From NCBI RefSeq assembly GCF_013823965.1, contig NZ_PNNA01000005.1:5419-69418 (forward strand): a stretch of 64,000 nucleotides of DNA, read 5' to 3'. The translations under genes and the position numbers were made by a program. Origin of the DNA: Flavobacterium sp. Lineage in GTDB: Bacteria > Bacteroidota > Bacteroidia > Flavobacteriales > Flavobacteriaceae. The notes under the pieces were generated by a model. That model made no database searches and was not told where the DNA came from. It worked only from the letters and a program-made list of their open reading frames with translations. Positions 30,780 to 63,020 of the stretch are shown one piece after another (the first letter of the stretch is position 1; each line of letters begins with the position of its first letter).

Positions 30780-30781
30780 TT

Positions 30782-30861
30782 TACAGTAATCAGCTTACAG
30801 TATTTAGTAATCAGTATTCGGTCCCGGGTAACTCTGAATACTGTAAACTGCAAACTGAACA
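30782..30861. repeat. inverted heptamer arrays (xCAGTAx)n ... (CTGxAxA)n around a cccggg centre, between the MFP and RND pump genes
   Basis: acagtaatcagcttacagtatttagtaatcagtattcggtcccgggtaactctgaatactgtaaactgcaaactgaacac. Same repeat family as 42301-42870. Confidence 0.8.
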
Positions 30862-30897
30862 CTTCCAATTTGGTTTAATCATTAAAAAAATAAATAG

Positions 30898-33800: not shown

Positions 33801-34065
33801 AGCGAGGTTCCGTGCCATTTTGATGACATCCTTTGCTTTTGTGGCCGGATTGCTTCCATTGGCAATGGCAACGGGGCCGGGTAAAATTGGTAACCGAACC
33901 ATTGGTACCGCAGCAGCCGGAGGCATGTTCATAGGAACTGTTTGTGGCGTGTTCGTGATTCCCGGATTGTATTACATTTTTGCAAAAATAGCCGAGAAAT
34001 ACAAGTTGGTTAAACACGAAGCAGAGAATCCATTAACCGAAGAAATAGACAACAATCATGTATAA
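30898..34065 (+). CDS. RND efflux permease (AcrB/HAE1-like)
   Basis: 1055 aa. N-terminus MFNKFIQRPVLSIVISLIIVFLGV, 12-TM architecture and two large periplasmic loops. Confidence 0.95.
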   Translation: MFNKFIQRPVLSIVISLIIVFLGVLSVMSLPITQFPSISPPMVNVTADYPGSNGELMIKSVVIPLERALNGVPGMKYMTSDAGNDGEASIQIVFNLGTDPNQAAINVQNRVASVTNKLPPLVVREGVKITREVPSMLMYVNLYSKDKNTDMKFLYNYADINVLSELKRVNGVGSGDILGTREYAMRIWLKPDRMLAYKISADEVMEALSSQSLEASPGKTGEASGKRSQAFEYVLKYSGRFTTKEQYENIVVRSNSNGELLRLKDIANVEFGSSMYDIYSNLNGKPSAAIVLKQSFGSNANQVIADVKSKLENIKKKFPKGMDYEISYDVSSFLDASIEKVIHTLIEAFVLVGLVVFLFLGDWRSTIITAIAVPVSLIGTFMFMQFFDISLNLITLFALVLAIGVVVDNAIVVIEAVHAKMEEEHLGPLKATKKVMHEIAGAIIAITFLMAAVFIPVAFMSGPVGVFYRQFSITMATAIILSGIVALTLTPALCAVMLKNTHGKHSKVTPASKFIDSFNKRFNLVQGKYQNLLGKIVTRRSVTFISLLAFCAGTWLISSTVPSGFIPNEDQGMFYAIIQTPPGSSLERTNDIASKLQKIAEKIDGVKSVSSLAGYEILTEGTGSNAGTCLINLKDWSDRKESVQEIMTELEEKSKDIPGANIEFFQPPAVPGYGAAGGFELRLLDKTGSGDYKKMESINTDFVKELNKRPELSNVFSFYSASFPQYMMKVDNDLAQQKEVSIENAMNTLSTLVGSNYEISFIKYGINYKVIVQAAPEYRSQPNDILKLYVKNNRDEMVPFSAFMKLEKVYGLSEITRHNMYTSTEISGGPASGYSSGTAIKAIQEVAEKKLPRGYDIDWAGISADEVGQGNQAIWVFLICLGFVYLVLAAQYESFILPFSVILSLPAGIFGAFLLIKMTGLENNIYAQVAMVMLIGLLGKNAVLIVEFAIQRHAAGKSVLEAAIEGAKARFRAILMTSFAFVAGLLPLAMATGPGKIGNRTIGTAAAGGMFIGTVCGVFVIPGLYYIFAKIAEKYKLVKHEAENPLTEEIDNNHV

Positions 34066-49677: not shown

Positions 49678-49808
49678 CGAAAATACTTGAAATACTATGC
49701 TTCTAATTGACTAATTTGAATATAATAGCTTAATTTTAAATCGAAATAGTTCGCGTACAAATGTTGCCAAGCCTCACAAATAGGCAAGAAAACAGAAAAA
49801 AAATAATT

Positions 49809-50789
49809 ATGTTGAAAGATAATTTTGGGAGAACACACGAATACCTTCGGATTTCGCTTACCGATGTTTGCAATTTCAGGTGCCAATATTGCATTCCGGA
49901 CGAGAAAACCTCTTTTATGCCTTCTTCCAGGTTGATGACGGTCGATGAAATTGATACTATCGCCCGAGAATTTGTAAAATTGGGAGTCCAAAAAATACGT
50001 TTGACCGGTGGAGAACCTTTGGTTAGAAAAGATGTTGCCCAAATTTTATGGGCACTTTCGAAATATCCAATAGAACTCACTTTAACCACAAACGGTTTGC
50101 GAACCAATGAATTTATTGACGTTTTTAAAAAAACTGGAATAAAATCCATCAATATTAGCTTGGACACACTCGATAAAGACCAATTTTTCAGCATTACCAA
50201 ACGCAATGTTTTTGATAAAGTTTGGAACAACATCCAGCAACTTATCGACGAAGGTTTTCACGTAAAAATAAATACGGTCGTGATGCGTGATTTTAATGAT
50301 GCTGAAATTCTCGATTTTATCGAATGGACAAAAAAACACCCCGTTCACGTGAGATTTATTGAGTTTATGCCTTTTGATAAAAACCAATGGAACACACAGA
50401 AAGTGTTTAGTTATCAGGAAATTATGGATAAGGCTGCAACAAAATACAGTTTTATCCGAATGAAAGACGGTATGAATGAAACTGCCAAAAAATTCAAACC
50501 CTTTGGCCACGAAGGTACTTTTGCCGTTATCAGTACGATGAGCGCACCGTTTTGCGGGAATTGTAACCGAATGAGACTCACCGCCGATGGTAAAATGAAA
50601 AATTGTTTGTTTTCTAAAGGCGAAGCCGATATTTTGTCTGCATTACGAAATTCAGAAAATATTGTGCCAATAATAAAACAATGTGTGGCCAGTAAAGCAG
50701 AAGCCTTGGGCGGACAATTTGAAGGCGATTACACCAAAATTGATACCACCAAAATTACCAACAGAAGTATGATCAACATAGGCGGATAA
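49809..50789 (+). CDS. moaA: GTP 3',8-cyclase (radical SAM)
   Basis: The ATG at 49809 gives the family-typical start MLKDNFGRTHEYLRISLTDVCNFRCQYC (CX3CX2C). The second cluster, CGNCNRMRLTADG, is also present. Confidence 0.93.
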   Translation: MLKDNFGRTHEYLRISLTDVCNFRCQYCIPDEKTSFMPSSRLMTVDEIDTIAREFVKLGVQKIRLTGGEPLVRKDVAQILWALSKYPIELTLTTNGLRTNEFIDVFKKTGIKSINISLDTLDKDQFFSITKRNVFDKVWNNIQQLIDEGFHVKINTVVMRDFNDAEILDFIEWTKKHPVHVRFIEFMPFDKNQWNTQKVFSYQEIMDKAATKYSFIRMKDGMNETAKKFKPFGHEGTFAVISTMSAPFCGNCNRMRLTADGKMKNCLFSKGEADILSALRNSENIVPIIKQCVASKAEALGGQFEGDYTKIDTTKITNRSMINIGG

Positions 50790-50836
50790 CCCTTTTTTTT
50801 GAACATCGTTATTCCTTTTTTGGCATATCGAAAAAA

Positions 50837-52021
50837 ATGATGCAAATGATAAATGTAAAAGACGCAAAACAGCTAATTGATGAAAATTGCTGTTCTCAAA
50901 AAGTGAAAATGGTAACCTTGCTGGAAGCCAATGGAAGCATTTTGGCACAACCTGTTCATGCAGTCATGGACACGCCGCCTTTTGACCAATCGGCGATGGA
51001 TGGCTATGCTTTTTCCTATGAAAATTGGGATAAAAAAAGCCATTTAAAGGTAATTGGCGAAATACAAACGGGTAATTATTCTACTGAAAATGTGCTTGCC
51101 AATGAAGCGGTTAGGATTTTTACGGGAGCGCCCATTCCGCCCGGAACTGATACGGTTGTGATGCAGGAAAAAATCAGTCGGAACGAAAATGAGATTCAAA
51201 TTCTAGATACTTTTTTGATCAAAGGAGCCAATGTTCGACCGCAAGGTTCACAAACCAAAAAGGGAGAATTAGCGCTGCAAGAAGGACAATTATTGTCACC
51301 GGTTGCGATTTCTTTTTTAGCCGGAATAGGCATCAGTAAAGTGAAAGTTTTTTCGAAACCGACTGTCAGCATTATTGTAACGGGGAAAGAACTAGTTAAA
51401 TCCGATGACACGATTACCGATGGAAAAATTTTCGAATCCAACTCCATTGGTTTAATTGCGGCATTGCAACAATTAGATATAAATCCAGTTTCGGTTGAAG
51501 TGGTTGATGATGTCGAAGCAGAAATTGAAAAAGCCATTTCGAATCAATTGACTTCCGATATTCTCATTCTTACAGGCGGTGTTTCGGTGGGCGATTATGA
51601 TTTGGTTCCCGCTTCTTTGGAGCAATGTGGGGTTCAAAAAATATTCCATAAAATCAAACAAAAACCAGGAAAGCCCTTTTATTTTGGGCGTTTCAACCAA
51701 ACCTTGGTATTTGCTTTACCCGGAAATCCTGCGGCGGTCATGAGTTGTTTTTATGAATATGTGGCCCAGGCCATCGGTCATTTTACTAAGAAAGAGTATT
51801 TTAAAAAAAGAGCGTTTCCATTGGCCGAAGATTTTAATAAAAAAGCGGGACTTACTTATTTTCTAAAAGGAAAAATGGGTGAGAAAGCCGTGACGGTTTT
51901 GAACAATCAAGAGAGTTACAAGCTGAATTCTTTTGCCGTGGCAGATTGTTTGGTTGAATTTGATGAAGAGGGCGAGAATTTCAAAAAAGGAGATTTGGTC
52001 AATGTTAGAATGATTTTATAA
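50837..52021 (+). CDS. moeA: molybdopterin molybdenumtransferase
   Basis: 394 aa with FDQSAMDGYA and LPGNPAAV motifs. Confidence 0.92.
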   Translation: MMQMINVKDAKQLIDENCCSQKVKMVTLLEANGSILAQPVHAVMDTPPFDQSAMDGYAFSYENWDKKSHLKVIGEIQTGNYSTENVLANEAVRIFTGAPIPPGTDTVVMQEKISRNENEIQILDTFLIKGANVRPQGSQTKKGELALQEGQLLSPVAISFLAGIGISKVKVFSKPTVSIIVTGKELVKSDDTITDGKIFESNSIGLIAALQQLDINPVSVEVVDDVEAEIEKAISNQLTSDILILTGGVSVGDYDLVPASLEQCGVQKIFHKIKQKPGKPFYFGRFNQTLVFALPGNPAAVMSCFYEYVAQAIGHFTKKEYFKKRAFPLAEDFNKKAGLTYFLKGKMGEKAVTVLNNQESYKLNSFAVADCLVEFDEEGENFKKGDLVNVRMIL

Positions 52022-52043
52022 AGCTTTTTTAAACTAAAAAACG

Positions 52044-52376
52044 ATGAAAAATTTAATAATCAAAGGACATCTTTCGATAGAAAACAGCAAGGGACATTTG
52101 ATGGGAATGGGCAAAAAAGAATTGCTCGAAAGAATCAGGGAAACAGGTTCTATCAGTGCTGCTGCCAAAGAAATGCAAATTTCCTACCGACACGCTTGGG
52201 AGATGATAAAAAAAATCAATTCCATTTCAGACAAACCCATTGTCATAAAAAACACGGGAGGTTCCAGTGGTGGTGGCTCCATCGTTACAAAAGAAGGGGA
52301 GGAGTTGATTGCCTGCTACATCAAATTGAATGCTGCTTTTGAGGAATTTAAAGAACAAATCTGTAAAACAATTTGA
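52044..52376 (+). CDS. ModE N-terminal-like winged-helix regulator (no Mop/TOBE domains)
   Basis: 110 aa. LLERIRETGSISAAAKEMQISYRHAWEMIKKIN...GGSSGGGSIVTKEGEEL matches the ModE/LysR-type HTH N-domain. Confidence 0.7.
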   Translation: MKNLIIKGHLSIENSKGHLMGMGKKELLERIRETGSISAAAKEMQISYRHAWEMIKKINSISDKPIVIKNTGGSSGGGSIVTKEGEELIACYIKLNAAFEEFKEQICKTI

Positions 52377-52379
52377 TAT

Positions 52380-53111
52380 ATGTACCAAGAGATTTTGTTT
52401 TACGTGTTGTTGGCATTGGTCGCTTTTCTCTATTCTTCCGTGGGACATGGCGGAGCAAGCGGATATTTGGCCTTGATGGCCTTCTTTTCATTTGCGCCGG
52501 AAACAATGCGTCCTACGGCTTTGTTGATCAATATTTTTGTTTCTTTAATCGCTTTTGTTCAATATTATCGTGGTGGTTTTTTTAAATGGAATTTGTTTTG
52601 GCCCTTTGCGCTAGCTTCTTTTCCGGCGGCATTTGTCGGGGGAATGATAAGTGTTGATGTTGGTTTGTATAAAAAAATACTGGCGGTACTTTTGCTGTTT
52701 TCAGTGGCAAGATTATTGGGGATCAAATTCAAAAGGGCAACATTCGATGTAAAGCAAAACCTCTACCTCGCACTTTTGATTGGAGCCATCATCGGATTGT
52801 TTTCAGGAATGATGGGAATAGGTGGCGGCATTATTTTGAGTCCCATAATTTTACTCATGCATTGGGCAGACATGAAAAAAACAGCCGCAGTTTCGGCCTT
52901 GTTCATTTTTGTTAATTCAATTGCCGGTTTTGCCGGTCTTTTTGCCAAAGGTTTCGAATTTAAAACTGAAATGGGAGTAATGATAGTCCTTGCTTTAATG
53001 GGTGGAATTGCAGGTTCTTATTATGGTGCCAATAAATTTAAAAATGATTTTTTGAATAAAATATTGGCTCTAGTCTTGATTATTGCATCCATAAAACTAA
53101 TTGTTGCCTGA
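52380..53111 (+). CDS. TauE/SafE (DUF81) family anion permease
   Basis: 243 aa with about 7-8 TM segments and internal duplication with GxGGG motifs (VGHGGASG, MGIGGGII). Confidence 0.85.
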   Translation: MYQEILFYVLLALVAFLYSSVGHGGASGYLALMAFFSFAPETMRPTALLINIFVSLIAFVQYYRGGFFKWNLFWPFALASFPAAFVGGMISVDVGLYKKILAVLLLFSVARLLGIKFKRATFDVKQNLYLALLIGAIIGLFSGMMGIGGGIILSPIILLMHWADMKKTAAVSALFIFVNSIAGFAGLFAKGFEFKTEMGVMIVLALMGGIAGSYYGANKFKNDFLNKILALVLIIASIKLIVA

Positions 53112-53113
53112 CG

Positions 53114-53935
53114 ATGGATACTCAAACGAAACCTATGAACGCCTATATTCTTGCAGGTGGAAAAAGCTCCAGAATGGGCACTGATAAAGGCTTGACTCTC
53201 TTTGAAGGAAAAGCCATGATCCTGCATGTCATCGAACAATTGCAAGCTGTTTTCAATAAATTGGTTATTGTTTCCAATAATCCCGAATATGAAAAATTTG
53301 GATTGGAAGTGATTCCTGATTTGATAAAAGATATTGGTCCCGCTGGTGGAATTTACACCGCTTTGAAGCATTCGAAATCCAAATTGAATTTTATGGTGAG
53401 TTGTGACATGCCTTTTATTACCAAAGAAGCAATTGAATTTACTGTAAAAAATGTTGATAAAAACCAAATCGTTTTATTGGAAAATCAAGGAAAATTAGAA
53501 CCCTTGTTTGGAATATATTCTAAAGATTGCGAAGCCGTTTGGTTGGAACTCATTCATCAAAATACCGTTAAATTACAGAAAATGGTTGCGTGCTTCGAGT
53601 TAAAAATCATTCCTGTTGAAAACAATGAAATTTTTAACGCGTCTTTTTTCAAAAACATCAATACAAAAGAGGACTTTGACAACGCTTCAAACAAATTTAA
53701 AATGGAAATAAACATACTTGCCTTTGGACAAATTACCGATATAACGGGTAAATCAGCATGGAAAATGACTGGAATAAAAGACACGGACGAGTTGGTGAAA
53801 AACTTGCACGAACAATTTCCCGCATTGTCCAGAACTCGCTATTCTATTGCCGTAAACAAAAAATTGGTACAAGAAAACAAGGTATTTACCGAGAATGACA
53901 CAATAGCTTTACTTCCACCATTTTCTGGCGGATAA
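53114..53935 (+). CDS. mobA: molybdenum cofactor guanylyltransferase MobA fused in frame to a MoaD-like sulfur-carrier domain
   Basis: N-terminal roughly 195 aa carries ILAGGKSSRMG (MobA). The C-terminal 77 aa (from the in-frame ATG at 53702, MEINILAFGQI...) ends in the ubiquitin-like LLPPFSGG-stop. No stop codon separates the two parts. Confidence 0.8.
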   Translation: MDTQTKPMNAYILAGGKSSRMGTDKGLTLFEGKAMILHVIEQLQAVFNKLVIVSNNPEYEKFGLEVIPDLIKDIGPAGGIYTALKHSKSKLNFMVSCDMPFITKEAIEFTVKNVDKNQIVLLENQGKLEPLFGIYSKDCEAVWLELIHQNTVKLQKMVACFELKIIPVENNEIFNASFFKNINTKEDFDNASNKFKMEINILAFGQITDITGKSAWKMTGIKDTDELVKNLHEQFPALSRTRYSIAVNKKLVQENKVFTENDTIALLPPFSGG

Positions 53936-53946
53936 AATAATATAAT

Positions 53947-55065
53947 ATGGATTCAAATAGATACAGGTACCAAAGACAAGTGCAACTCAAGGAAATTGGG
54001 GCAGTTGGCCAGGACAAAATTCGAAAAGCAAAAGTGTTGGTTATTGGCGCAGGCGGTTTAGGTTGTCCTGCCTTGCAATACCTTGCTGCTGCAGGAGTGG
54101 GGACGATTGGCATTGTCGATTTTGATGTGGTTGAAATTTCAAATCTGCAACGTCAAATACTGTATACCGTGGATGATTTAGGTCAATCAAAAGCAATCAC
54201 GGCTGCCAAAAGGATGGAAGCGCTAAACCCGGAAATTACAATCCAATCCCATAATTTTCAATTGACCAATAAGAATGCGCTCGAGATTCTGGAAAATTAC
54301 GATATTGTTATCGATGGTTCCGATAATTTTGCCACGCGATACCTCATTAATGACGCGTGCATGTTGCTTGATAAACCATTAATTTATGGCGCTGTTTTGC
54401 GTTTTGAAGGACAAATTGGCGTTTTCAATTTAGAAGACACAGAAACTCGTGTTAAAACCAATTATCGGGATTTATTTCCAAAACCACCCGATTCGACATC
54501 CGCAATTTCCTGTAATGACGTGGGTGTTTTGGGAGTAATTCCAGGAATTATTGGAACGATGCAAGCCACGGAAGCACTCAAAATCATTACTGGTGTTGGC
54601 AAACCATTGACAAATAAAATAATTTCATGCAACGCCCTGGAAAACACCTTTCATAATTTTGAAATTGTTCCAAGCACTAATCAATCCTTCGATTTTCCGA
54701 AAAGCAAAATGGCTTTTTTAGACTTCAATTACGATTGGATGTGCACCCCAAATGTGAATTTTGACATGCTTTCTGTCGAAGAATTTGATATTCTCAGAAT
54801 AAACGAAAAAATCACCATTGTTGATGTGCGTGAAAAAGGGGAACTTCCCTTAGTGGAGGAATTTCCCGTTGTATTGATTCCATTGAGTGAATTTGAAAAT
54901 TTGGTTTCGACCATTTCCCAGGAGTACAAAATAATATTTTTTTGCAAATCGGGTCAACGCAGCCTAAAAGCCTTAAAATTATTCAAAGAAAAATTCCCTG
55001 ATTGTCAAGCTTACAGTTTAACTGGAGGCATCGAATATTGGAAAAATAACAAGTATAAAATATAA
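53947..55065 (+). CDS. moeB: molybdopterin-synthase adenylyltransferase/sulfurtransferase (MoeB/MoeZ type with rhodanese domain)
   Basis: 372 aa with E1-like loop VIGAGGLGCP and a C-terminal rhodanese active-site loop FFCKSGQRS. Confidence 0.9.
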   Translation: MDSNRYRYQRQVQLKEIGAVGQDKIRKAKVLVIGAGGLGCPALQYLAAAGVGTIGIVDFDVVEISNLQRQILYTVDDLGQSKAITAAKRMEALNPEITIQSHNFQLTNKNALEILENYDIVIDGSDNFATRYLINDACMLLDKPLIYGAVLRFEGQIGVFNLEDTETRVKTNYRDLFPKPPDSTSAISCNDVGVLGVIPGIIGTMQATEALKIITGVGKPLTNKIISCNALENTFHNFEIVPSTNQSFDFPKSKMAFLDFNYDWMCTPNVNFDMLSVEEFDILRINEKITIVDVREKGELPLVEEFPVVLIPLSEFENLVSTISQEYKIIFFCKSGQRSLKALKLFKEKFPDCQAYSLTGGIEYWKNNKYKI

Positions 55066-55071
55066 CTACTC

Positions 55072-55518
55072 ATGAAGGAGAAAAAAAAGCACAATGTGTT
55101 TGTCAATGGGCCTATAACGCCTGATTTTATTGCCAACAGCATTGCCAAACACAGCTCAAAAACAGACATTGGAGCACACGACATCTTTTTGGGACAAGTC
55201 CGAAGCGACATAATTGATAAAAAAACAGTGGTGGCCATCAACTATGAAGCCTATCAAGAAATGGCGGATGATCTTTTTTACGAGATACGCGAAGCCGCGT
55301 TTTCAAAATACAATTTAGTGTGCATGCACATTTATCACAGCCTTGGAGTGGTAAAAACGGGTGAAATTTGCCTCTTTGTATTTGTGTCATCCAAACACCG
55401 CAAAGAAGCTTTTGATGCCTGTAAAGACATTGTGGAACAAATAAAAGCGATGACACCAGTTTGGGGCAAAGAAATTTTTGAAGATGATTCGTATGTCTGG
55501 AAGGAGAATCAATCTTGA
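55072..55518 (+). CDS. moaE: molybdopterin synthase catalytic subunit
   Basis: 148 aa with a MoaE fold pattern (...VGEICLFVFVSSKHRKEAF...PVWGKE). Confidence 0.88.
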   Translation: MKEKKKHNVFVNGPITPDFIANSIAKHSSKTDIGAHDIFLGQVRSDIIDKKTVVAINYEAYQEMADDLFYEIREAAFSKYNLVCMHIYHSLGVVKTGEICLFVFVSSKHRKEAFDACKDIVEQIKAMTPVWGKEIFEDDSYVWKENQS

Positions 55519-55575
55519 AACCCCAACGTTTAAAACCGTTGGCTATAAAATAATTAATATTTAAATTACAAAATA

Positions 55576-56487
55576 ATGGTCGATATAACATTCAAATCGA
55601 ATACCCTTCGCGTCGCAAATGCGCAAGCCATAGTAAAAGTCAGTAAAAAAGAGACAATCGATGCCATTGTAAACAAAACGGTTCCCAAAGGAGATGTTTT
55701 CGAAATGGCCAAAACTGCAGGACTCTTTGCCGTAAAACGCACCAGTGACATGATTCCGGATTGTCATCCAATTCCAGTTGAATTTACGGCCGTGAGTTAT
55801 GATATAAAGGAGTTGGAAATTACCATAGGAGTGGAAGTGCATACCATTTATAAAACAGGAGTGGAAGTGGAGGCGATGCACGGCGCATCAGTGGTTGCGC
55901 TTACCATGTATGACATGTTGAAGCCTATCGACAAAGAAATCGAAATTCATTCCATCAAATTGTTGGAAAAAAAAGGGGGCAAATCTGATTTTACGGATAA
56001 ATTTCGCACGGATTTAAAAGCTGCCGTAATTGTTTGTTCGGACAGTATTTCGGCTGGAAAGAAATTCGACAGAGCTGGAAAGGCCATAATCCAAAAATTA
56101 GAATTTTGCAAAGTGGGCATCACCGATTATTCCATCATTCCTGACGATATTGTAGGAATTCAAGAAAAAGTTTTGGACTTGCATGCACAAAACATAGACC
56201 TTGTTATACTGACCGGAGGCACAGGGCTTTCGCCAAGGGACAACTCACCCGAAGCGATAAAACCTCTTTTGGACAGGGAAATACCTGGAATTATGGAAGC
56301 GGCACGCCATTATGGCCAAGATCGCACACCGTTCTCAATGTTATCACGCGGAATCGCCGGAATGAAAGGCAAAACACTTATCATGACATTACCGGGTTCT
56401 ACCAAAGGAGCACAGGAATCCATGGACGCATTATTTCCTTCTCTTTTACACATTTTTAGGGTTGTTGAGGGGAAACAACACGATTAA
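55576..56487 (+). CDS. moaC: bifunctional MoaC (cyclic pyranopterin monophosphate synthase) / MoaB-MogA domain protein
   Basis: 303 aa. The N-terminal half is MoaC-like (MIPDCHPI...VEAMHGASV). The C-terminal half carries the MogA/MoaB motif [10 protein letters not shown]. Confidence 0.92.
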
Positions 56488-56699
56488 AAAATAGTTAGTT
56501 TTTTTATATAATTATTCTTTCAAACTTAATTTTTTGTTCTTTTTTCGTGAGTATAAAATAGGATAAAAACATCTTTTTTACACTGATTTTTGTTAAAAAA
56601 ATAGATTTTAAAAAGGTTTTTACAAATAAAACTAGATTTTATATGTTTTTTAGTTGAATTTTAATGAATTCTTAGATTTATCGCTAATTTTTAAAAATA

Positions 56700-56711
56700 T
56701 GATAATTGTCA
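56700..56711. promoter_or_regulatory. TGATAATTGTCA box upstream of the hexaheme cytochrome gene (candidate Crp/Fnr-family site)
   Basis: TGAT-N4-GTCA, centre about 110 nt upstream of the ATG at 56815. It shares 10 of 12 positions with the box at 59564-59575. Confidence 0.3.
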
Positions 56712-56814
56712 GTTAAATTTTTTAGTTCATTTTATAAATTTAACATCATAAGAATAAGTTAAAATATAGTTAAAAAAAACCAAATACAAATCAAATAAAT
56801 TAAACAAAAAAATT

Positions 56815-57888
56815 ATGAAAACAGTCAAACAAATTATGTTAGTTGTTTTAGGACTTCTTTTTTTCGCCTTGCAGGGATGTTCTCACGACGACTATATTCC
56901 TGTTCCAGGTCCAGCTGGTGCTGATGGCACAAATGGCACAAATGGTATTAACGGAACTACAGAATGTGCTACTTGTCACTCTAAAGCACATACAGACCCA
57001 GTTAATATTTCTTATGCTTTGTCTGTTCATGCTATTGAAACGTTACATGAAACTACAAATGCAAGTGGCGCCACAATTACTCTAAAGACTTCAGAATACA
57101 CTAACAGAACTGGTTGTACCCAGTGTCATACCAGTCAAGGTTATATTGACAAATTGAATGGTGATGTTCAAAAAACGGGAACAGGAACTGCGTTAGGTTT
57201 TCCTGCTTATCCTGGAGGCAAACAAGCAATCTCTTGTACAACTTGCCACAATAAACATTCTAGTTTTGATTTTAAAAATGATGGTAATGATTATGCCCTT
57301 AGACAAGGTTTTACACCAGTTGCTTTAGATACAGACCCAACCTACAAAATGGATATGGGTACAAGTAATACCTGTGTTAACTGTCACCAATCAAGAAGTT
57401 TGCCTCCAACATCAGGAGACGTAAAATTAAGTAGTCGTTTTGGTCCTCACCATGGTCCACAATCTTCATTATTAGAAGGTATTCAAGGAGCTTTAATTGT
57501 TGGAACTACTCCTTATCCAGCTCCAAAATCTGCTAAACATAGATCAGGTGCTTCTTGTGTGACTTGTCACATGGGTAAAACTTCTGACGGTAAAAACGGT
57601 GCGCACACTTGGCATCCAACTCCAAATGCTTGTACTACTTGTCATACAGGAGGTGCGCCAGCTGCTGTTGCTGGTTTTGCAGCTGACATGGCAACATTAC
57701 AAGGTTTATTGGTAGCAAAAGGAGCTTACAATGCTACCACAAAAGCTTTCACTACAAATACTGTTCCTATTAAAGTTGCCCAAGCTGCTTGGAATTATGC
57801 CATGTTGCTGGAAGATAGAAGTAATGGAGTTCATAATCCAACTTATGCAAAAGCCTTGTTGAAAAACTCAATCGAAGCTTTACAATAA
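56815..57888 (+). CDS. hexaheme c-type cytochrome lipoprotein
   Basis: 357 aa with a signal peptide and Cys (FALQGC). Six CxxCH motifs: CATCH, CTQCH, CTTCH, CVNCH, CVTCH, CTTCH. Six Gly-X-Y triplets (GPAGADGTNGTNGINGTT) follow directly after the lipidation site. Confidence 0.85.
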   Translation: MKTVKQIMLVVLGLLFFALQGCSHDDYIPVPGPAGADGTNGTNGINGTTECATCHSKAHTDPVNISYALSVHAIETLHETTNASGATITLKTSEYTNRTGCTQCHTSQGYIDKLNGDVQKTGTGTALGFPAYPGGKQAISCTTCHNKHSSFDFKNDGNDYALRQGFTPVALDTDPTYKMDMGTSNTCVNCHQSRSLPPTSGDVKLSSRFGPHHGPQSSLLEGIQGALIVGTTPYPAPKSAKHRSGASCVTCHMGKTSDGKNGAHTWHPTPNACTTCHTGGAPAAVAGFAADMATLQGLLVAKGAYNATTKAFTTNTVPIKVAQAAWNYAMLLEDRSNGVHNPTYAKALLKNSIEALQ

Positions 57889-58078
57889 AATTATAAAATC
57901 AACACCTCTGGAACTTTGTCCAGGGGTTGTTGATTTGAAAAACTAATTATCCTGAACACTTTAATTTGGTGCGGTATTCTTTAGTAATTCAGCGATTGCT
58001 TACGGAATTTTAAATCTTTTGACAATGAAAATTGTTGAATGACTATTTACGGCAATTATTCAATTTAAAAATAAAAAG

Positions 58079-58462
58079 ATGAAAAAAATAATTCAATATT
58101 TAATGATGCTAATGGTGAGTTTGATGGCAACATCTTGTTACTATGACGAAATGCCGCCAGAAGCCGTCATCCCGATTCCAGAAACGGTTTCTTACTCAAA
58201 AGATGTCCAGCCTTTGTGGAATCAAGATTGTATCAGTTGTCATAAGCCAGGCGCAACGGCACCTGATTTGACTACGGCAAATTCTTACAGTGCATTAGTG
58301 ACAAACAATAAATATGTTATTCCGGGAAATGCTGTTGGTAGTAAACTACACAAATCTCTTGTTGCCGATGGCGTATCTCTAATGCCAACCACCGAAAAAT
58401 GGAGTGATTCAAAAATTGCTTTGGTAGACAAATGGATTACTGATGGTGCCCTTAATAACTAA
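58079..58462 (+). CDS. small monoheme c-type cytochrome lipoprotein
   Basis: 127 aa with lipobox MATSC and a single CISCH motif. Confidence 0.7.
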   Translation: MKKIIQYLMMLMVSLMATSCYYDEMPPEAVIPIPETVSYSKDVQPLWNQDCISCHKPGATAPDLTTANSYSALVTNNKYVIPGNAVGSKLHKSLVADGVSLMPTTEKWSDSKIALVDKWITDGALNN

Positions 58463-58478
58463 CTATAAATAGAAAGTC

Positions 58479-59342
58479 ATGAAATTATATAAAAAAATAT
58501 TTATAGCCGTGTTTGCTTTTCCAATGGTGTTATTGGCACAGGAACAAAAAGATACTATTGCTGCCGTTGAGGAAGACAGTATTGCACCAGTGGTAGAAGT
58601 AGAATTGGAGCGTGCCGCTTTTGAAAGCACTTCATTAATAGAAAATCAAACGAATAGGGTTTACTCCAAAGGAACCATAGAAATGATCATGAATCACCGT
58701 TTTGGCGTTGTCAGCGGAACCAATGACTTGATTGGGATTTGGGCACCGTCCAATATTCGTATAGCGGTAAATTACTCCATCACGGATCGTATTACTGTTG
58801 GTTTTGGAACTACAAAGGACAATAGATTGCAGGATTTTAGTCTTAAAGTTGCTTTATTGAGGCAAACGGTTAATGGAAAAATGCCTGTGAGTGTCACTTA
58901 TTATGGAAATGCCAGCATCAATGCAATGCCCAAAGAGAATTTCTATCACACCTCTGACCGTCATTCTTTTTTTAACCAAATCATTATTGCAAAACGATTC
59001 TGCAAAGCATTTTCATTACAACTAGCACCAAGTTATTCTCATTACAACGTTGTTGACGCTCCAATGAGTAATGATTTGTTTGCCGTTGAATTAGGCGGTC
59101 GTCTAAAAGTGGCTTCAGATATTTCCATCCTTTTTGATGTGAATCAGCCTTTTACTTCACAAGAAATTGCTCCTAAATCTGGTATTTCCATTGGAACCGA
59201 GTTTTCAACTGTTGGGCATTCCTTCCAGATTTTTGTGAGTAATTATCGAGGAATCATAAATCAACAAAACAACATGTTCAATCAAAATGATTTTTTCGAA
59301 GGCGATTTTGCCATTGGATTTAACATTTCCAGAACCTGGTAA
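58479..59342 (+). CDS. outer-membrane beta-barrel protein (DUF5777-like)
   Basis: 287 aa with a signal peptide (VLLAQE), alternating hydrophobic beta-strand pattern and a C-terminal aromatic end ...GFNISRTW. Confidence 0.65.
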   Translation: MKLYKKIFIAVFAFPMVLLAQEQKDTIAAVEEDSIAPVVEVELERAAFESTSLIENQTNRVYSKGTIEMIMNHRFGVVSGTNDLIGIWAPSNIRIAVNYSITDRITVGFGTTKDNRLQDFSLKVALLRQTVNGKMPVSVTYYGNASINAMPKENFYHTSDRHSFFNQIIIAKRFCKAFSLQLAPSYSHYNVVDAPMSNDLFAVELGGRLKVASDISILFDVNQPFTSQEIAPKSGISIGTEFSTVGHSFQIFVSNYRGIINQQNNMFNQNDFFEGDFAIGFNISRTW

Positions 59343-59355
59343 TATTTTAAAAAGC

Positions 59356-59384
59356 CATTTGTGTAAAAAACTACAAATGTTTTT
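59356..59384 (+). terminator. rho-independent terminator after the barrel gene
   Basis: Stem catttgt/acaaatg followed by Ts. Confidence 0.7.
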
Positions 59385-59406
59385 CCAATAAATTTAAATT
59401 AGAAGA

Positions 59407-59451
59407 AGAGGATTCTCGTTCCAATTAGTATGAGTTTATCCTCTTTTTTTT
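59407..59451 (+). terminator. second tandem terminator
   Basis: Stem agaggat/atcctct followed by a 7-8 nt T run. Confidence 0.7.
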
Positions 59452-59562
59452 GGATAGGGAAAACAAAGAAGTCTTTTTGAAATCATTGGTCGTAAAGCCT
59501 TGATTTAATTGGGATTGAACTGTGTGAAAATAGAAAAATTAGGGTTAAAATAATTTTTAAGT

Positions 59563-59576
59563 ATGATAAATATCAT
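59563..59576. promoter_or_regulatory. ATGAT-aaat-ATCAT palindrome upstream of the NrfC-like gene (candidate Crp/Fnr-family site)
   Basis: TGAT-N4-ATCA core, centre about 112 nt upstream of the ATG at 59682. Confidence 0.35.
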
Positions 59577-59681
59577 TGAAATTTAGCCACAAAATTCTGA
59601 AATTTACAAGGCAATTAAGCCAACTTATTTTAAATAAGTGTAATGCATTTTGTGATTAATTTCTAAAAGCAATATAACAAT

Positions 59682-60617
59682 ATGGAAAAAGAAAATAACA
59701 ATTCAAGCCGCCGTAATTTCCTAAGGCTAGGTGCTTTGGGAGGGATAGCCTTGGCAGGAACTGCAATTGCTAAAGCAGTTACTGATGAAAGTCCAAAAAC
59801 TACTGGCAAAAAAGTCAAAGTTCTTACTGCTGATGGAAAATTAATAGAAATAGACAGTTCTCACGTTGATCACCATGCCTCAAATGACGGCTTCTCCAGT
59901 GAAGAAGTGCGACAAGGTGTTGAAGGTAAGAAATTTATAAGGGTTATTGATTTGGCCAAATGTGCCAACGAAAGAAAATGCATAACAGGATGTCAAAAAG
60001 CACATAATATTTTGGCTCCCATCGAGTATATCAAGGTAAAGAAAATGCAGGATTCAGAGCTTGCGGCTCCTTATTGGTTTCCTACAATGTGCTACCATTG
60101 CGACAATCCTCCATGCGTAAAAGTATGTCCGGTTGACGCCACCTTTAAACGTTCTGACGGAATAGTTGCCATGGATTACGATCGATGCATTGGTTGCAAA
60201 TTCTGTATGGCAGCTTGTCCATATTCTGCCCGTACGTTCAACTTTGGAAGACCCGAACAATTAAAATTTACCGAAGAGCATAAAAACGATACTTCAGATC
60301 CAAACCACTGTACAACTCCTTATGCACAAGAAGGAACTGTTGCAAAATGTGATTTCTGTACGGATCGTTCTGCAAAAGGATTATTGCCTGCATGTGTTGT
60401 CGAATGTCCAAATGGCGCCATATATCACGGTGACGAACTTGAAGACGTGGTTAGTAATGGTGAAGAAACCCTTAGATTGAAAAAACTATTGCAAGACAGG
60501 GCTGGATATCGTCAATTTGAAGAATTGGGAACTAAACCCCGCGTCTATTATTTGCCGCCTGTAGAACGTGATTTCCCGTTTGAAGATGCAGCCGAAGCAC
60601 AAAACACAAAAGAATAA
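59682..60617 (+). CDS. Tat-exported 4Fe-4S ferredoxin-type subunit (NrfC/PsrB/ActB2-like)
   Basis: 311 aa with twin-arginine signal SRRNFLRLG. Cys clusters: C-x5-C-x3-C, CYHCDNPPCVKVCP, CIGCKFCMAACP and CDFC...CVVECP. Confidence 0.88.
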   Translation: MEKENNNSSRRNFLRLGALGGIALAGTAIAKAVTDESPKTTGKKVKVLTADGKLIEIDSSHVDHHASNDGFSSEEVRQGVEGKKFIRVIDLAKCANERKCITGCQKAHNILAPIEYIKVKKMQDSELAAPYWFPTMCYHCDNPPCVKVCPVDATFKRSDGIVAMDYDRCIGCKFCMAACPYSARTFNFGRPEQLKFTEEHKNDTSDPNHCTTPYAQEGTVAKCDFCTDRSAKGLLPACVVECPNGAIYHGDELEDVVSNGEETLRLKKLLQDRAGYRQFEELGTKPRVYYLPPVERDFPFEDAAEAQNTKE

Positions 60618-60636: not shown

Positions 60637-62016
60637 ATGTCTGAAGATATAAATATCACGGAATCTACCAATAAACACGAGACCTTTACCCAAGAAGAGT
60701 ATATGGTCATGAAAAATGACCTGCTCCGTCCCATCGAAAAAATTGGAAAAGCCGGTAAAATATGGATTGCATTCCTCATAACCGTTTTCTTGGCCGGAAT
60801 TTTTGCTTATTACATACAAGAAACAAGAGGAAAATATACAACTATTAGCCTAAGAGATTATACAATGTGGGGAATTTACATTTCCAACTTTTTGTTTATG
60901 GTTGCCATAGGTTTAGTGGGTGTGTTGATGTCGGCCATACTGAAACTCACCCATTTTGAATGGTACCGGCCTCTTTCCAGAATAGCAGAAGTTATCGCCA
61001 TTGGCGCCATAATGTTTGCCGGAATAAGCATCGTTGTAGCTATGGGGCGACCTGACAGGCTGTATAATTTGCTTTTGCACGGACGTATTCAATCCCCGAT
61101 TGTATGGGATGTTATCGGAATTTCGACTGATTTGGCAGCCAGTCTTATTTTACTTTTTATTCCGCTAATTCCTTCATTGATAACGTGTAGGAACAATTTG
61201 AAAAACTTGCCAAAATGGCAATTGAAAATGTACAATTTTCTTTCCTTTGGATGGCAAGGAACGCCGGAACAATGGAAAATATTGAAAAAAACAATGAGGA
61301 TTTTGACCATCTTGCTAATTCCTCTGGGTATTTTAATTTGTACCATTACGGCATGGTTATTTGCCACGACCCTCAGACCGGAATGGGACAGTACTAATTT
61401 TGGTGCCTATTTTGTTTCAAATGCCTTTTTGTTGAGTGTGGCCGTAATGACTTTATCCACTTTTATTTTTAGAAATGCATACAACTTGGAAAAATACTTG
61501 ACCGAACTGCATTTTGATAAATTGGGCAAAGCAATGGTATTAATGGCTTTAATTCACGGTTATTTCAACATAAACGAATACTTGATTCCAGCTTATAAAA
61601 TGTCCGGCTTGCATCAAAATCATCTCTTGAACTTATTCGTGGGCAAAGATGCTTTGTTTTATTGGTCTGTGGTGATTTTTGGAATTATAGTTCCTTTTTT
61701 GTTGCCATTGTTTCCCAAATTGCGAAAACCAATTCCTCTGACCATAATTTCGGTTATCGTATTGATAGCGGGTTGGTTTAGACTTTATTTAGTGGTTATT
61801 CCAGGATTATTGCAACCTTATCTTCCTATACAGGATGTTCCTGAATCGTGGACACATTACTTCCCAAGTTTGGTCGAAATGACTATCGTGGCAGCAACTT
61901 TTGCCGGTGTATTATTGATAGTGACCTTGTTCTCGAGGTTTTTCCCAATCGTTTCTGTTTGGGAAGTAGCCGAAGGCCAATTGGAAGGAAAAGAAGAAAT
62001 AATTAACTATAAATAA
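60637..62016 (+). CDS. NrfD/PsrC-family integral-membrane quinone-interacting subunit (long, ActC/HmcC-like form)
   Basis: 459 aa with about 10 hydrophobic segments by eye. Family-typical stretch GRPDRLYNLLLHGRIQSPIVWDV. Confidence 0.88.
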   Translation: MSEDINITESTNKHETFTQEEYMVMKNDLLRPIEKIGKAGKIWIAFLITVFLAGIFAYYIQETRGKYTTISLRDYTMWGIYISNFLFMVAIGLVGVLMSAILKLTHFEWYRPLSRIAEVIAIGAIMFAGISIVVAMGRPDRLYNLLLHGRIQSPIVWDVIGISTDLAASLILLFIPLIPSLITCRNNLKNLPKWQLKMYNFLSFGWQGTPEQWKILKKTMRILTILLIPLGILICTITAWLFATTLRPEWDSTNFGAYFVSNAFLLSVAVMTLSTFIFRNAYNLEKYLTELHFDKLGKAMVLMALIHGYFNINEYLIPAYKMSGLHQNHLLNLFVGKDALFYWSVVIFGIIVPFLLPLFPKLRKPIPLTIISVIVLIAGWFRLYLVVIPGLLQPYLPIQDVPESWTHYFPSLVEMTIVAATFAGVLLIVTLFSRFFPIVSVWEVAEGQLEGKEEIINYK

Positions 62017-62023
62017 TTCCCAG

Positions 62024-62575
62024 ATGGAAAAGTACAACTATTTTATAGCCACCTGCATGATGATTTTGTTCTCCTTGACAACTTCTAATGCCCAAGATAA
62101 AGAAGCCAAAATCACCTTGACTTTTGAAAAAGCGGATTCACTCTATGTGTGTAAAGCTTTGGTAACTTCTGATGGAATTCCGGTAAGCGAAGTACCCGTA
62201 AATTTATCAGTGAAACGCTTGTTTAGTAACCTCCCAATAGGTGATCCTGTGGCAACAGATTCCATTGGCGTGGCCACTTTTGAAGTGCCACAAGATATTC
62301 CTTCACGTAATGGAAAATTAATTATATTTGCTAATATAGTTGATGATGAGAACTATATGAACACTGAAACTAGCGGAACAGTCAATTGGGGTATGGTTGT
62401 TGTTAGTGATAACTCAAATATAGAAGACCGTTCCATTTCCGCAGGAAGAGATAAAGCTCCCATTTATTTTATAACGGCATCTCTTTTGATTATTTTCTTG
62501 ATATGGGGAACTTTATTTTATGCAGTATTGCAAGTATTTAAGATAAAACGATTAGGCAAAGCAAACATCGAATAA
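62024..62575 (+). CDS. hypothetical exported protein with C-terminal membrane anchor
   Basis: 183 aa with a signal peptide (SNAQD), a roughly 110-aa beta-rich domain and a C-terminal TM segment (IYFITASLLIIFLIWGTLFYAVL). No cofactor motif. Confidence 0.5.
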   Translation: MEKYNYFIATCMMILFSLTTSNAQDKEAKITLTFEKADSLYVCKALVTSDGIPVSEVPVNLSVKRLFSNLPIGDPVATDSIGVATFEVPQDIPSRNGKLIIFANIVDDENYMNTETSGTVNWGMVVVSDNSNIEDRSISAGRDKAPIYFITASLLIIFLIWGTLFYAVLQVFKIKRLGKANIE

Positions 62576-62606: not shown

Positions 62607-63020
62607 ATGAAAAACATGAAAAAAATCCTTTTTGGGCTAGCTGTTTTGGCTGCCTTTACATTCACTCAAACTACTAATGCACAAGCAAAACCAAAAGGAA
62701 AAGAATGGAAAACTCCTGCGGCTGACGCCAAAAAGAAAAGTCCCATAAATTTGAGTGATGCTTCTGCCATTAGTGCAGGAAAATCACTTTGGGGAACCAA
62801 TTGCAAGTCTTGTCACGGTGTGAAAGGTCTTGGAGATGGAACAAAAGCGGAAAAAATTGATATTTCTTGCGGTGATTTCTCTTCAAAAGAATTTCAATCA
62901 TCTTCTGATGGAGATATGTTTTACAAAACAAAAATTGGTAGAAAACCAATGCCTTCTTACAAAGAAAAACTGAGCGATTCAGAAATTTGGCAATTAGTGG
63001 CCTACATGAGAACGATGTAA
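62607..63020 (+). CDS. monoheme class-I c-type cytochrome
   Basis: 137 aa with a signal peptide, CKSCH and a distal Met context GRKPMPSY. Confidence 0.85.
   Translation: MKNMKKILFGLAVLAAFTFTQTTNAQAKPKGKEWKTPAADAKKKSPINLSDASAISAGKSLWGTNCKSCHGVKGLGDGTKAEKIDISCGDFSSKEFQSSSDGDMFYKTKIGRKPMPSYKEKLSDSEIWQLVAYMRTM

What the first reader, a model, noticed from the sequence alone, without database searches (positions are those of the whole stretch)
56815..58462. Both lipoprotein cytochromes carry acidic residues right after the lipidated Cys, plus a Gly-X-Y tether: possible cell-surface exposure
**What the sequence shows.**
- The hexaheme protein matures at ...FALQG-C-SHDDY. The monoheme protein matures at ...MATS-C-YYDEM.
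- Each therefore has two acidic residues at +3/+4.
- The other four lipoproteins in the window lack this feature: C-EVIR, C-GVKQ, C-TPKK and C-TPAL.
- The hexaheme protein continues with six uninterrupted Gly-X-Y triplets (GPA GAD GTN GTN GIN GTT) before the first heme motif. This looks like an extended spacer.

**Established knowledge.** In Bacteroidota a short acidic motif shortly after the +1 Cys acts as a lipoprotein export signal that sends lipoproteins to the cell surface.

**Inference.** One or both cytochromes may be surface-exposed. That would be unusual for this phylum and would point to extracellular electron transfer.
Basis: partly seen in the sequence, partly recalled or inferred. 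Interest (0 to 1): 0.65.

Follow-up and report, generated by a model that had tools for sequence, protein, structure and literature searches.

The report
Lipoprotein cytochromes of a Flavobacterium outer-membrane redox cluster
Two lipid-anchored cytochromes in a freshwater Flavobacterium belong to a widely conserved, undescribed gene cluster that probably carries electrons between the cell's quinone pool and the cell surface, but their surface location has not been shown.

Summary
**Observation.** It is correct. The hexaheme gene (56815-57888) matures at C-SHDDY and is followed by six Gly-X-Y triplets. The monoheme gene (58079-58462) matures at C-YYDEM. The four other lipoproteins in the window lack the acidic pair.

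**Interpretation.** It is partly supported.
- Only one acidic residue is conserved in each family. In the hexaheme family this is D/E at +4 (Cys = +1) in 115 of 119 homologs. In the monoheme family C-Y-Y-D is nearly invariant.
- Acidic N-termini are common among neighbouring lipoproteins, so the motif alone is weak evidence.
- Independent evidence points the same way:
  - The best structural matches are the cell-surface iron reductases OcwA and OmhA.
  - A relative carries a type IX secretion tail.
  - The monoheme gene always sits just upstream of an outer-membrane barrel gene (DUF5777).
  - That pair is followed by a quinol-dehydrogenase-like pair, an anchored protein and a periplasmic cytochrome c.
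  - The gene upstream is interchangeable (hexaheme, diheme or heme-b lipoprotein) but keeps the same C-T/S-H/S-D/E start.
- The Gly-X-Y tract is present across the family, at 3-16 triplets.

**Open points.** Location, direction of electron flow and the way electrons cross the outer membrane are all untested. I found no paper describing the cluster.

The parts
56815..57888 (+). Hexaheme c-type cytochrome lipoprotein (357 aa) of the OcwA/NrfA-like fold
   Evidence: It has six CXXCH motifs. Pfam PF22113 (MtrC/MtrF domain II/IV) scores 42.8 bits against a threshold of 30. The AlphaFold model has pLDDT 82. Foldseek best hits are OcwA 6i5b (E 7e-7) and OmhA 6qvm (E 2.6e-5). A profile search of PDB sequences hits the NrfA C-terminal module (E 1e-7) and OcwA (E 1.4e-6).
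56815..56880 (+). Signal peptide and lipobox of the hexaheme, ...FALQG-C22
   Evidence: Heuristic lipobox scan. A lipobox Cys is present in 119 of 120 homologs.
56881..56892 (+). S-H-D-D at +2 to +5, a candidate lipoprotein export signal
   Evidence: It matches the published minimal signal (PMC5080379). Across homologs +2 is T/S in 100%, +3 is S/H/T in 98%, +4 is D/E in 97% and +5 is D/E in 30%.
56908..56961 (+). Six Gly-X-Y triplets (aa 32-49), ending one residue before the first heme Cys
   Evidence: Read directly from the sequence. The tract has 4-12 triplets in 119 homologs and 3-16 in the diverse representatives. Model confidence is below 50 here. A 9-bp tandem repeat lies at 56924-56945.
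57904..57927 (+). Terminator-like hairpin after the hexaheme gene
   Evidence: Consensus scan only. An RNA-seq contig nevertheless runs across it.
58079..58462 (+). Monoheme c-type cytochrome lipoprotein (127 aa), ...MATS-C20-YYDEM, heme motif C51ISCH
   Evidence: C-Y-Y-D is nearly invariant in about 190 sequences. A conserved 'MP' motif in 10 of 13 diverse members suggests His/Met ligation. Hits to PccH are weak and below threshold.
58479..59342 (+). DUF5777 outer-membrane beta-barrel protein (287 aa), always directly downstream of the monoheme gene
   Evidence: Pfam PF19089 scores 247 bits. It has a signal peptide and a C-terminal aromatic residue. The model shows about 12 strands but at low confidence, pLDDT 46. 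H73, H188 and H247 are at least 95% conserved in 79 sequences.
59682..60617 (+). Twin-arginine-exported 4Fe-4S protein, DsrO/NrfC-like
   Evidence: Pfam Fer4_11. NCBIfam DsrO scores 179 bits, below its cut-off of 200. The SRRNFLRLG motif is visible.
60637..62016 (+). NrfD/DsrP-like integral membrane quinone-interacting subunit
   Evidence: Pfam NrfD scores 90 bits. NCBIfam DsrP scores 87 bits, below its cut-off.
62024..62575 (+). Conserved unknown protein (183 aa) with a signal peptide and a C-terminal transmembrane helix
   Evidence: No family hit. It is conserved in this position in most loci, where it is about 290 aa outside Flavobacterium.
62607..63020 (+). Periplasmic class I cytochrome c (137 aa)
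   Evidence: Pfam Cytochrom_C and Cytochrome_CBB3. It has a signal peptide and a PMP motif. It is conserved at the end of the cluster.

Best explanation
**Proposed system.** The two cytochromes are outer-membrane lipoproteins of a seven-gene redox module that is widespread in Flavobacteriaceae.

**Proposed path (outward).**
1. Menaquinol is oxidised by the NrfD/DsrP-like membrane subunit.
2. Electrons pass to the DsrO/NrfC-like iron-sulfur subunit, which works with a small anchored protein.
3. They move to the soluble periplasmic cytochrome c.
4. They reach an outer-membrane pair made of the lipidated monoheme cytochrome and the DUF5777 barrel.
5. They end at a surface-exposed 'head' lipoprotein. 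Here the head is an OcwA-like hexaheme cytochrome held off the membrane by a 5-8 nm Gly-X-Y stalk. It would reduce an extracellular acceptor such as Fe(III), Mn(IV), humic substances or possibly oxygen.

**Shown here.**
- The gene content and its conservation.
- The lipoboxes.
- The conserved D/E at +4.
- The family-wide Gly-X-Y tract.
- The fold relationship to OcwA, OmhA and NrfA.

**Inferred.**
- Surface exposure.
- The order of carriers.
- The outward direction.
- How electrons cross the outer membrane.
For: **Cluster conservation.**
- In 80 metagenome loci seeded on DUF5777, the monoheme gene is directly upstream of the barrel wherever flank exists. FeS-NrfD-orfX-cyt c follow in nearly all.
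- The gene upstream is interchangeable. It is a hexaheme in 25 of 34 loci with enough flank (sometimes two copies). Otherwise it is an EB_dh heme-b lipoprotein or a diheme lipoprotein. All of these start C-T/S-H/S-D/E.

**Fold and family.**
- The best solved-structure matches are two cell-surface iron reductases, OcwA and OmhA, ahead of periplasmic NrfA (PMC6703420, PMC9250108).
- Pfam MtrC/MtrF domain II/IV scores above its threshold.
- P0485 has 18 heme motifs and matches the hexaheme profile at E 8e-57. It carries a type IX secretion C-terminal domain scoring 46 bits. Other relatives carry PKD or LRR domains.

**Export signal.**
- The window proteins match the experimentally defined signal at the optimal position.
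- D/E at +4 is present in 97% of hexaheme homologs, against 40% in background lipoproteins.
- The RND-pump lipoproteins in the window lack it.

**Expression.** Wastewater RNA-seq assemblies cover the coding regions with dips in the intergenic gaps.

**Direction.** Tight linkage to a quinone-interacting module in heterotrophs favours a path that ends at the quinone pool.
Against: - No localisation data exist.
- Only one acidic residue is conserved, whereas the defined minimal signal needs two.
- Acidic lipoprotein N-termini are common in this group (n = 25 only).
- The NrfA-like fold and the NrfCD-like partners are classic periplasmic respiratory parts.
- Nothing in the cluster obviously spans the outer membrane with hemes. 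The barrel has only about 12 strands in a low-confidence model, and the monoheme domain is too large to sit inside it.
- The monoheme and the 137-aa cytochrome are probably His/Met, high-potential carriers. That fits inward flow to an oxidase at least as well as outward flow.
- Export of a folded six-heme lipoprotein by the Bacteroidota pathway has no precedent that I found.
Confidence: 0.42

Rival explanations
1. Periplasmic chain. Both cytochromes are lipoproteins that face the periplasm, anchored in the inner leaflet of the outer membrane or in the inner membrane. With the NrfCD-like pair and cytochrome c they form a periplasmic respiratory branch, like NrfABCD or a reduced alternative complex III. 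The hexaheme acts as a reductase or shuttle for a soluble substrate, and DUF5777 is merely the porin that admits that substrate. The acidic residues are then a sorting or spacing feature unrelated to surface export.
For: - The C-terminal module is homologous to NrfA (E 1e-7).
- The FeS and NrfD subunits are closest to DsrO/DsrP, NrfC and TtrB.
- An invariant H212-H213 pair lies at a spacing similar to the HH 380/381 motif over the open heme 5 of OcwA. A substrate-binding heme is therefore possible.
- The second acidic residue is not conserved.
- The acidic background is high.
Against: - There is no CXXCK motif.
- The closest folds are surface reductases, not NrfA.
- Relatives are type IX secretion cargo or carry PKD or LRR domains.
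- The heads are interchangeable but share a conserved N-terminal motif.
- The barrel gene is strictly paired with a lipidated cytochrome in 80 loci, which is unusual for a simple substrate porin.
Confidence: 0.25
2. Inward electron uptake. The cytochromes are surface-exposed but work in reverse. The hexaheme takes electrons from an extracellular donor such as Fe(II), reduced humics or a mineral. It passes them through the monoheme/barrel pair, a split analogue of the fused cytochrome-porin Cyc2, to the periplasmic class I cytochrome c and on to a terminal oxidase. The NrfCD-like module is a side branch to the quinone pool.
For: - The monoheme probably has His/Met ligation, and the 137-aa cytochrome is class I with a weak resemblance to oxidase donors.
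- The layout of a monoheme plus a small barrel plus periplasmic cytochrome c plus an ACIII-like module resembles neutrophilic iron oxidisers. This comparison is from my own knowledge and was not tested.
- There is a weak, sub-threshold resemblance to PccH, a Geobacter cytochrome linked to electron uptake.
Against: - Flavobacteriaceae are organoheterotrophs with no obvious need for reverse electron flow.
- The closest structural relatives are reductases.
- Homology between DUF5777 and the Cyc2 barrel was not tested.
Confidence: 0.15
3. Collagen-like trimer. The Gly-X-Y tract is not a passive spacer. It is a short collagen-type triple helix that trimerises the cytochrome into an 18-heme assembly on a rigid stalk. 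This is compatible with either topology.
For: - Strict period-3 glycine occurs in every homolog despite length changes of 3-16 triplets.
- Composition is biased: X is T, V or I, and Y is D in 55% of positions.
- One homolog is flagged with the Pfam Collagen family.
Against: - Six to nine triplets are far shorter than known stable bacterial collagen-like helices (my own knowledge).
- Pfam Collagen did not match the window protein.
- The monomer model gives no structure here.
- OcwA is a monomer/dimer mixture in solution.
Confidence: 0.15

Closest known systems
OcwA (Thermincola potens, PDB 6I5B) and OmhA (Carboxydothermus ferrireducens, PDB 6QVM), cell-surface multiheme terminal reductases of the NrfA/cytochrome c554 superfamily
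   Same: - They are the best structural matches (E 7e-7 and 2.6e-5).
- The C-terminal heme pair and helices with the G-x-H-N-P motif are shared.
- A conserved His-His pair lies upstream of the heme 5 motif, as with HH 380/381 in OcwA.
   Different: - The window protein has six hemes, not nine or eleven.
- TM-score is only 0.43.
- It comes from a Gram-negative host, is lipid-anchored and has a Gly-X-Y stalk.
- Heme ligation is unknown.
MtrC/OmcA-MtrA-MtrB porin-cytochrome conduit of Shewanella
   Same: - It combines a lipoprotein multiheme cytochrome, an outer-membrane barrel and a quinol dehydrogenase in one locus.
- Pfam MtrC/MtrF domain II/IV scores above its threshold.
- The terminal cytochromes are interchangeable.
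   Different: - There is no decaheme MtrA-like periplasmic insert and no 26-strand MtrB.
- The barrel is an unrelated DUF5777 with about 12 strands.
- The quinol module is NrfCD-like, not CymA.
- Export would use the Bacteroidota lipoprotein signal, not type II secretion.
Bacteroidota surface lipoproteins carrying the lipoprotein export signal (Lauber et al. 2016, PMC5080379), typically paired with a barrel (SusD-SusC, BtuG-BtuB)
   Same: - A lipobox Cys is followed by a polar residue and then acidic residues at +4/+5.
- A lipoprotein gene lies adjacent to a barrel gene.
   Different: - The cargo is a cytochrome.
- The barrel is small and not TonB-dependent.
- Only one acidic residue is conserved family-wide.
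- The C-Y-Y-D motif is much more rigid than the degenerate signal.
Cyc2, the fused monoheme cytochrome-porin of iron oxidisers
   Same: One c-type heme is associated with an outer-membrane barrel and followed by periplasmic class I cytochrome c.
   Different: - Here there are two separate genes.
- The cytochrome is lipidated.
- The barrel is smaller.
- Sequence homology was not tested.
NrfABCD, alternative complex III and DsrMKJOP quinone modules
   Same: A twin-arginine-exported FeS subunit and an NrfD-type membrane subunit are encoded next to c-type cytochromes.
   Different: - Scores are below the equivalog cut-offs.
- There is no molybdopterin-like subunit.
- There is no CXXCK nitrite-reductase heme.
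- An outer-membrane barrel is present.

Membership tests
Bacteroidota surface lipoproteins with a lipoprotein export signal | Signal peptidase II signal peptide with a lipobox cysteine | tested here: met
   A heuristic scan finds ...LQG-C and ...ATS-C. A lipobox is present in 119 of 120 hexaheme homologs and in nearly all monoheme homologs. No dedicated predictor was run.
Bacteroidota surface lipoproteins with a lipoprotein export signal | A polar or basic residue followed by two acidic residues close to +1, optimally at +4/+5 | tested here: inconclusive
   The two window proteins meet it (S-H-D-D and Y-Y-D-E). Family-wide, only +4 is conserved: +4 and +5 are both acidic in 30% of hexaheme homologs, and monoheme +5 is E 45%, A 22%, D 10%. 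Background is 24%.
Bacteroidota surface lipoproteins with a lipoprotein export signal | Demonstrated exposure on the cell surface | not testable with these tools
   This needs protease shaving, labelling or microscopy.
MtrC/OmcA outer-membrane decaheme cytochromes | Ten hemes in two pentaheme domains alternating with two beta-barrel domains | tested here: not met
   The protein has six CXXCH motifs in 357 aa. Only residues 46-194 match domain II/IV. MtrC ranks behind NrfA and OcwA in the sequence search (E about 1e-3) and is absent from the top fold hits.
MtrC/OmcA outer-membrane decaheme cytochromes | Partner MtrA-like decaheme and MtrB-like large porin | tested here: not met
   The cluster holds no such genes. 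The barrel is DUF5777.
NrfA/OcwA/octaheme superfamily | C-terminal heme pair plus long helices with a G-x-H-N-P motif | tested here: met
   Profile search against PDB gives E 1e-7 for NrfA and 1.4e-6 for OcwA. Foldseek gives E 7e-7.
NrfA/OcwA/octaheme superfamily | A penta-coordinated catalytic heme (CXXCK in NrfA; a distal His-His pocket in OcwA) | tested here: inconclusive
   There is no CXXCK. Six non-motif His are invariant and H213 is nearly invariant, including the H212-H213 pair. The ligation of each heme could not be assigned without coordinates.
Collagen-like triple-helix repeat proteins (PF01391) | A long uninterrupted Gly-X-Y run that forms a trimer | tested here: not met
   Periodicity is perfect, but there are only 6 triplets (3-16 in the family). 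There is no Pfam Collagen hit for the window protein. Trimerisation was not testable.
NrfCD/DsrOP-type quinone-interacting modules | A twin-arginine-exported four-cluster ferredoxin plus an NrfD-family membrane protein | tested here: met
   Pfam Fer4_11 and NrfD are above threshold. DsrO scores 179 bits and DsrP 87 bits, both below equivalog cut-offs. The module is related but is not a named equivalog.
Cyc2 fused cytochrome-porin | A single polypeptide with an N-terminal monoheme domain and a C-terminal barrel; homology to Cyc2 | not tested
   No Cyc2 sequence or model was at hand. The genes here are separate.

The most novel reading that the evidence does not exclude
Aerobic Flavobacteriaceae carry a new class of outer-membrane electron conduit. 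It consists of a lipidated monoheme cytochrome with an invariant C-Y-Y-D anchor and a small DUF5777 barrel with three invariant histidines, working like a split Cyc2. This pair passes electrons across the outer membrane to interchangeable redox heads (an OcwA-like hexaheme on a collagen-like stalk, a diheme cytochrome, or a DOMON-type heme-b protein). The heads would be surface-targeted by the lipoprotein export signal. The conduit is wired to the quinone pool by a DsrOP-like module.
Probability: 0.3. Interest if true: 0.8.

Novelty: new variant of a known kind. Interest (0 to 1): 0.6.

Why it matters
- Flavobacteriaceae are among the most abundant heterotrophs in oceans, lakes and wastewater, and are regarded as plain aerobic polymer degraders.
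- A conserved surface-directed electron conduit would give them access to iron, manganese, humic or electrode redox chemistry. It might also explain some extracellular superoxide production.
- It would be the first cytochrome cargo for the Bacteroidota lipoprotein export pathway.
- It would assign a role to DUF5777.
- Cultured carriers exist for testing: Flavobacterium franklandianum, F. alvei, F. fluvii, Lutibacter oceani, Yeosuana marina and Robiginitalea sp. SC105.
- If the proteins instead face the periplasm, the cluster is an ordinary, though unnamed, respiratory branch.

Tried and rejected
- **DUF5777 structure.** The AlphaFold model was poor (pLDDT 46) because the listed homologs were all at least 79% identical. 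I did not run a fold search on it. The strand count of about 12 is only indicative.
- **Sequence searches of solved structures.** DUF5777 gave nothing. The monoheme gave only non-significant hits.
- **Link to molybdenum cofactor genes.** The upstream biosynthesis genes (49761-56487) are syntenic only within Flavobacterium and mostly absent in other genera. I rejected a functional link.
- **MtrC membership.** Rejected, as set out in the membership test.
- **'All six hemes bis-His, hence a pure electron carrier'.** This was my first reading, from six invariant extra histidines. I withdrew it after noting the H212-H213 pair and the OcwA His-His motif.
- **Promoters.** A Bacteroidota-type promoter pattern (TTTG...TAnnTTTG) has no match in the cluster's intergenic regions. 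The sigma-70 scan is uninformative for this phylum.
- **Literature.** No paper mentions DUF5777. None links the export signal to cytochromes. None describes this cluster in Flavobacteria.
- **Small twin-arginine ORF.** Robiginitalea has one between the barrel and the FeS gene. The window has none.
Full report
**1. The observation.**
- ORF 56815-57888 (+) encodes a 357-aa protein with six CXXCH motifs. Its N-terminus reads MKTVKQIMLVVLGLLFFALQG-C-SHDDY-IPVP-GPA-GAD-GTN-GTN-GIN-GTT-E-CATCH.
- ORF 58079-58462 (+) encodes a 127-aa protein with one CXXCH. It reads ...SLMATS-C-YYDEM.
- With Cys as +1, the acidic pairs lie at +4/+5.
- Two of the four without an acidic pair are the membrane-fusion and outer-membrane-factor proteins of an RND pump. 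These must face the periplasm.

**2. Is it more than chance?**
- Not for a single protein. Among 25 other predicted lipoproteins in about 90 Flavobacteriia loci, 40% have D/E at +4 and 24% have it at both +4 and +5.
- The signal lies in conservation.
- In 119 hexaheme homologs (43-96% identity), +2 is T/S in all, +3 is S/H/T in 98% and +4 is D/E in 97%. Position +5 is acidic in only 30%.
- In the monoheme family C-Y-Y-D is almost invariant in 120 Flavobacterium homologs and about 70 diverse metagenomic ones, while +5 varies.
- More distant hexaheme relatives begin C-T-K-E-G or C-E-G-P.
- So one acidic residue is under selection, not two.
- The published signal is C-X-K-(D/E)2 or Q-A-(D/E)2 in Capnocytophaga and S-D-D-F-E in F. 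johnsoniae (PMC5080379). The window proteins fit it. The families fit it only loosely.

**3. The Gly-X-Y tract.**
- All 119 homologs have it, at 4-12 triplets. So do all 123 lipobox-bearing members among 130 full-length representatives of a library clustered at 50% identity, at 3-16 triplets. A Kapabacteria relative at 29% identity has it too.
- X is mostly T, V or I, and Y is D in 55% of positions.
- The tract ends one residue before the first heme cysteine in 89 of 119 homologs.
- Its length varies while the period never breaks, and the coding DNA holds a 9-bp repeat.
- The structure model has no confidence there.
- It is a conserved stalk of roughly 5-8 nm if extended. Whether it forms a collagen-type trimer is open.

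**4. What the hexaheme is.**
- Pfam places residues 46-194 in the MtrC/MtrF domain II/IV family (42.8 bits, threshold 30).
- A profile of 50 homologs finds the C-terminal module of NrfA (E 1e-7), OcwA (1.4e-6) and, weakly, MtrC (1e-3) among solved structures.
- The AlphaFold model (pLDDT 82) matches OcwA best (E 7e-7, TM 0.43). Next is the S-layer undecaheme OmhA (2.6e-5), and only then the nitrite reductases.
- OcwA and OmhA are cell-surface iron reductases of Gram-positive bacteria (PMC6703420, PMC9250108).
- Six non-motif histidines are invariant and H213 is nearly so. The H212-H213 pair lies at a spacing similar to OcwA's HH 380/381, which covers an open heme. Heme ligation is therefore unresolved.
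- The family is large: 460 clusters at E below 1e-30.
- Some members are multi-module proteins with PKD or LRR domains. One, P0485 with 18 heme motifs, ends in a type IX secretion sorting domain (46 bits). The module is therefore deployed outside the outer membrane in at least some relatives.

**5. The surroundings.**
- Downstream of the monoheme gene lie, in order:
  - a DUF5777 'membrane bound beta barrel' (247 bits);
  - a twin-arginine-exported FeS protein closest to DsrO;
  - an NrfD/DsrP-like membrane protein;
  - an unknown protein with a signal peptide and a C-terminal helix;
  - a class I cytochrome c.
- In 80 metagenome loci seeded on DUF5777, the monoheme gene is directly upstream of the barrel wherever flank exists, and the four downstream genes follow in nearly all.
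- The gene upstream of the monoheme is variable. A hexaheme is present in 25 of 34 loci with enough flank, sometimes in two tandem copies. Otherwise there is a roughly 415-aa EB_dh (DOMON-like heme-b) lipoprotein or a roughly 292-aa diheme lipoprotein. These mostly start C-T/S-H/S-D/E, commonly C-T-H-D-D.
- The molybdenum cofactor genes upstream in the window are syntenic only within Flavobacterium.
- DUF5777 ends in an aromatic residue and has about 12 strands in a low-confidence model. H73, H188 and H247 are conserved in 79 sequences.

**6. Expression and source.**
- The organism is a freshwater or wastewater Flavobacterium, with 84-87% protein identity to F. franklandianum and related genomes.
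- Two wastewater RNA-seq assemblies hold contigs over the coding regions, with dips at 56356-56969 and 59119-59732. One contig runs from the hexaheme gene into DUF5777.
- This suggests transcription and possibly co-transcription. The tool warns that contig depth is a poor measure and that DNA may be present.

**7. Mechanism.**
- The best-supported reading is an outer-membrane redox module linked to the quinone pool. The hexaheme is an interchangeable, probably surface-exposed head on a stalk.
- I favour outward flow for two reasons. The cluster is tied to a quinone-interacting module in heterotrophs, and the nearest structural relatives are terminal reductases.
- Against this, the monoheme (conserved MP motif) and the 137-aa cytochrome look like high-potential His/Met carriers, which suits inward flow to an oxidase.
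- No component obviously carries electrons through the membrane.
- A purely periplasmic chain with a substrate porin remains a serious rival.

**8. Novelty.**
- No paper in the searchable library mentions DUF5777, links the export signal to cytochromes, or describes this cluster.
- Predicted secreted multiheme cytochromes in other Bacteroidota have been reported (PMC11495043).
- I rate it a new variant of a known kind, the porin-cytochrome conduits. It is of moderate to high interest and is directly testable in cultured carriers.

Noticed in passing
window 49761-56487: A complete molybdenum cofactor biosynthesis block: moaA, moeA, a small HTH protein, TauE, a mobA-moaD fusion, moeB with a rhodanese domain, moaE and a moaC-mog fusion. 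It sits directly upstream of the cytochrome cluster. The adjacency is conserved within Flavobacterium and mostly absent in other genera (one metagenome locus, L087, also shows MoeA- and MoaC-like ORFs upstream). No molybdoenzyme gene lies in the window.
   Followed up: partly
window 58479-59342: DUF5777 has three histidines (H73, H188, H247) and many charged residues conserved at 95% or more across 79 sequences. These could be metal or heme ligands in a small outer-membrane barrel. This is unexplained.
   Followed up: partly
L017 14918-17092; also L042, L060, L069, L072, L092: A second, paralogous FeS + NrfD pair often follows the cluster. In L017 a gene for a small twin-arginine-signal protein of about 90 aa precedes it. 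L020 has a similar small gene between the barrel and its FeS gene.
   Followed up: no
L027 3608-7867; L038, L042, L046, L054: Some loci hold two monoheme-DUF5777 pairs (L027) or two tandem hexaheme genes. The module duplicates locally.
   Followed up: no
P0400, P0440, P0443, P0469, P0485 (one search hits): Large relatives carry 13-24 heme motifs together with PKD or Ig domains or a type IX secretion tail. P0443, with six heme motifs, is instead fused to LRR domains. P0469 keeps the lipobox, the C-E-G-P start and eight Gly-X-Y triplets.
   Followed up: partly
window 62024-62575: The conserved unknown protein is 183 aa in Flavobacterium but about 290 aa in other genera. It has a signal peptide and a C-terminal transmembrane helix, and no family hit.
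   Followed up: partly
L019 7452-7829; L084 2357-2767: A small rhodanese-domain protein is encoded upstream of the cluster in L019. L084 has an ORF with a similar N-terminal sequence. This may hint at sulfur chemistry or may be coincidence.
   Followed up: no
window 29697-35488: An RND efflux operon with a membrane-fusion lipoprotein, an AcrB-type pump and an outer-membrane-factor lipoprotein. I used these as periplasm-facing controls.
   Followed up: yes
window 56924-56945: A perfect 9-bp tandem repeat (ATGGCACAA, 2.4 copies) lies inside the Gly-X-Y coding tract. This fits length change by slippage.
   Followed up: yes
L005 6710-7474 (-): Next to the Kapabacteria hexaheme relative lies a TTHB210-like lipoprotein starting C-S-D-D-K. 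The seven-gene cluster is absent there.
   Followed up: no
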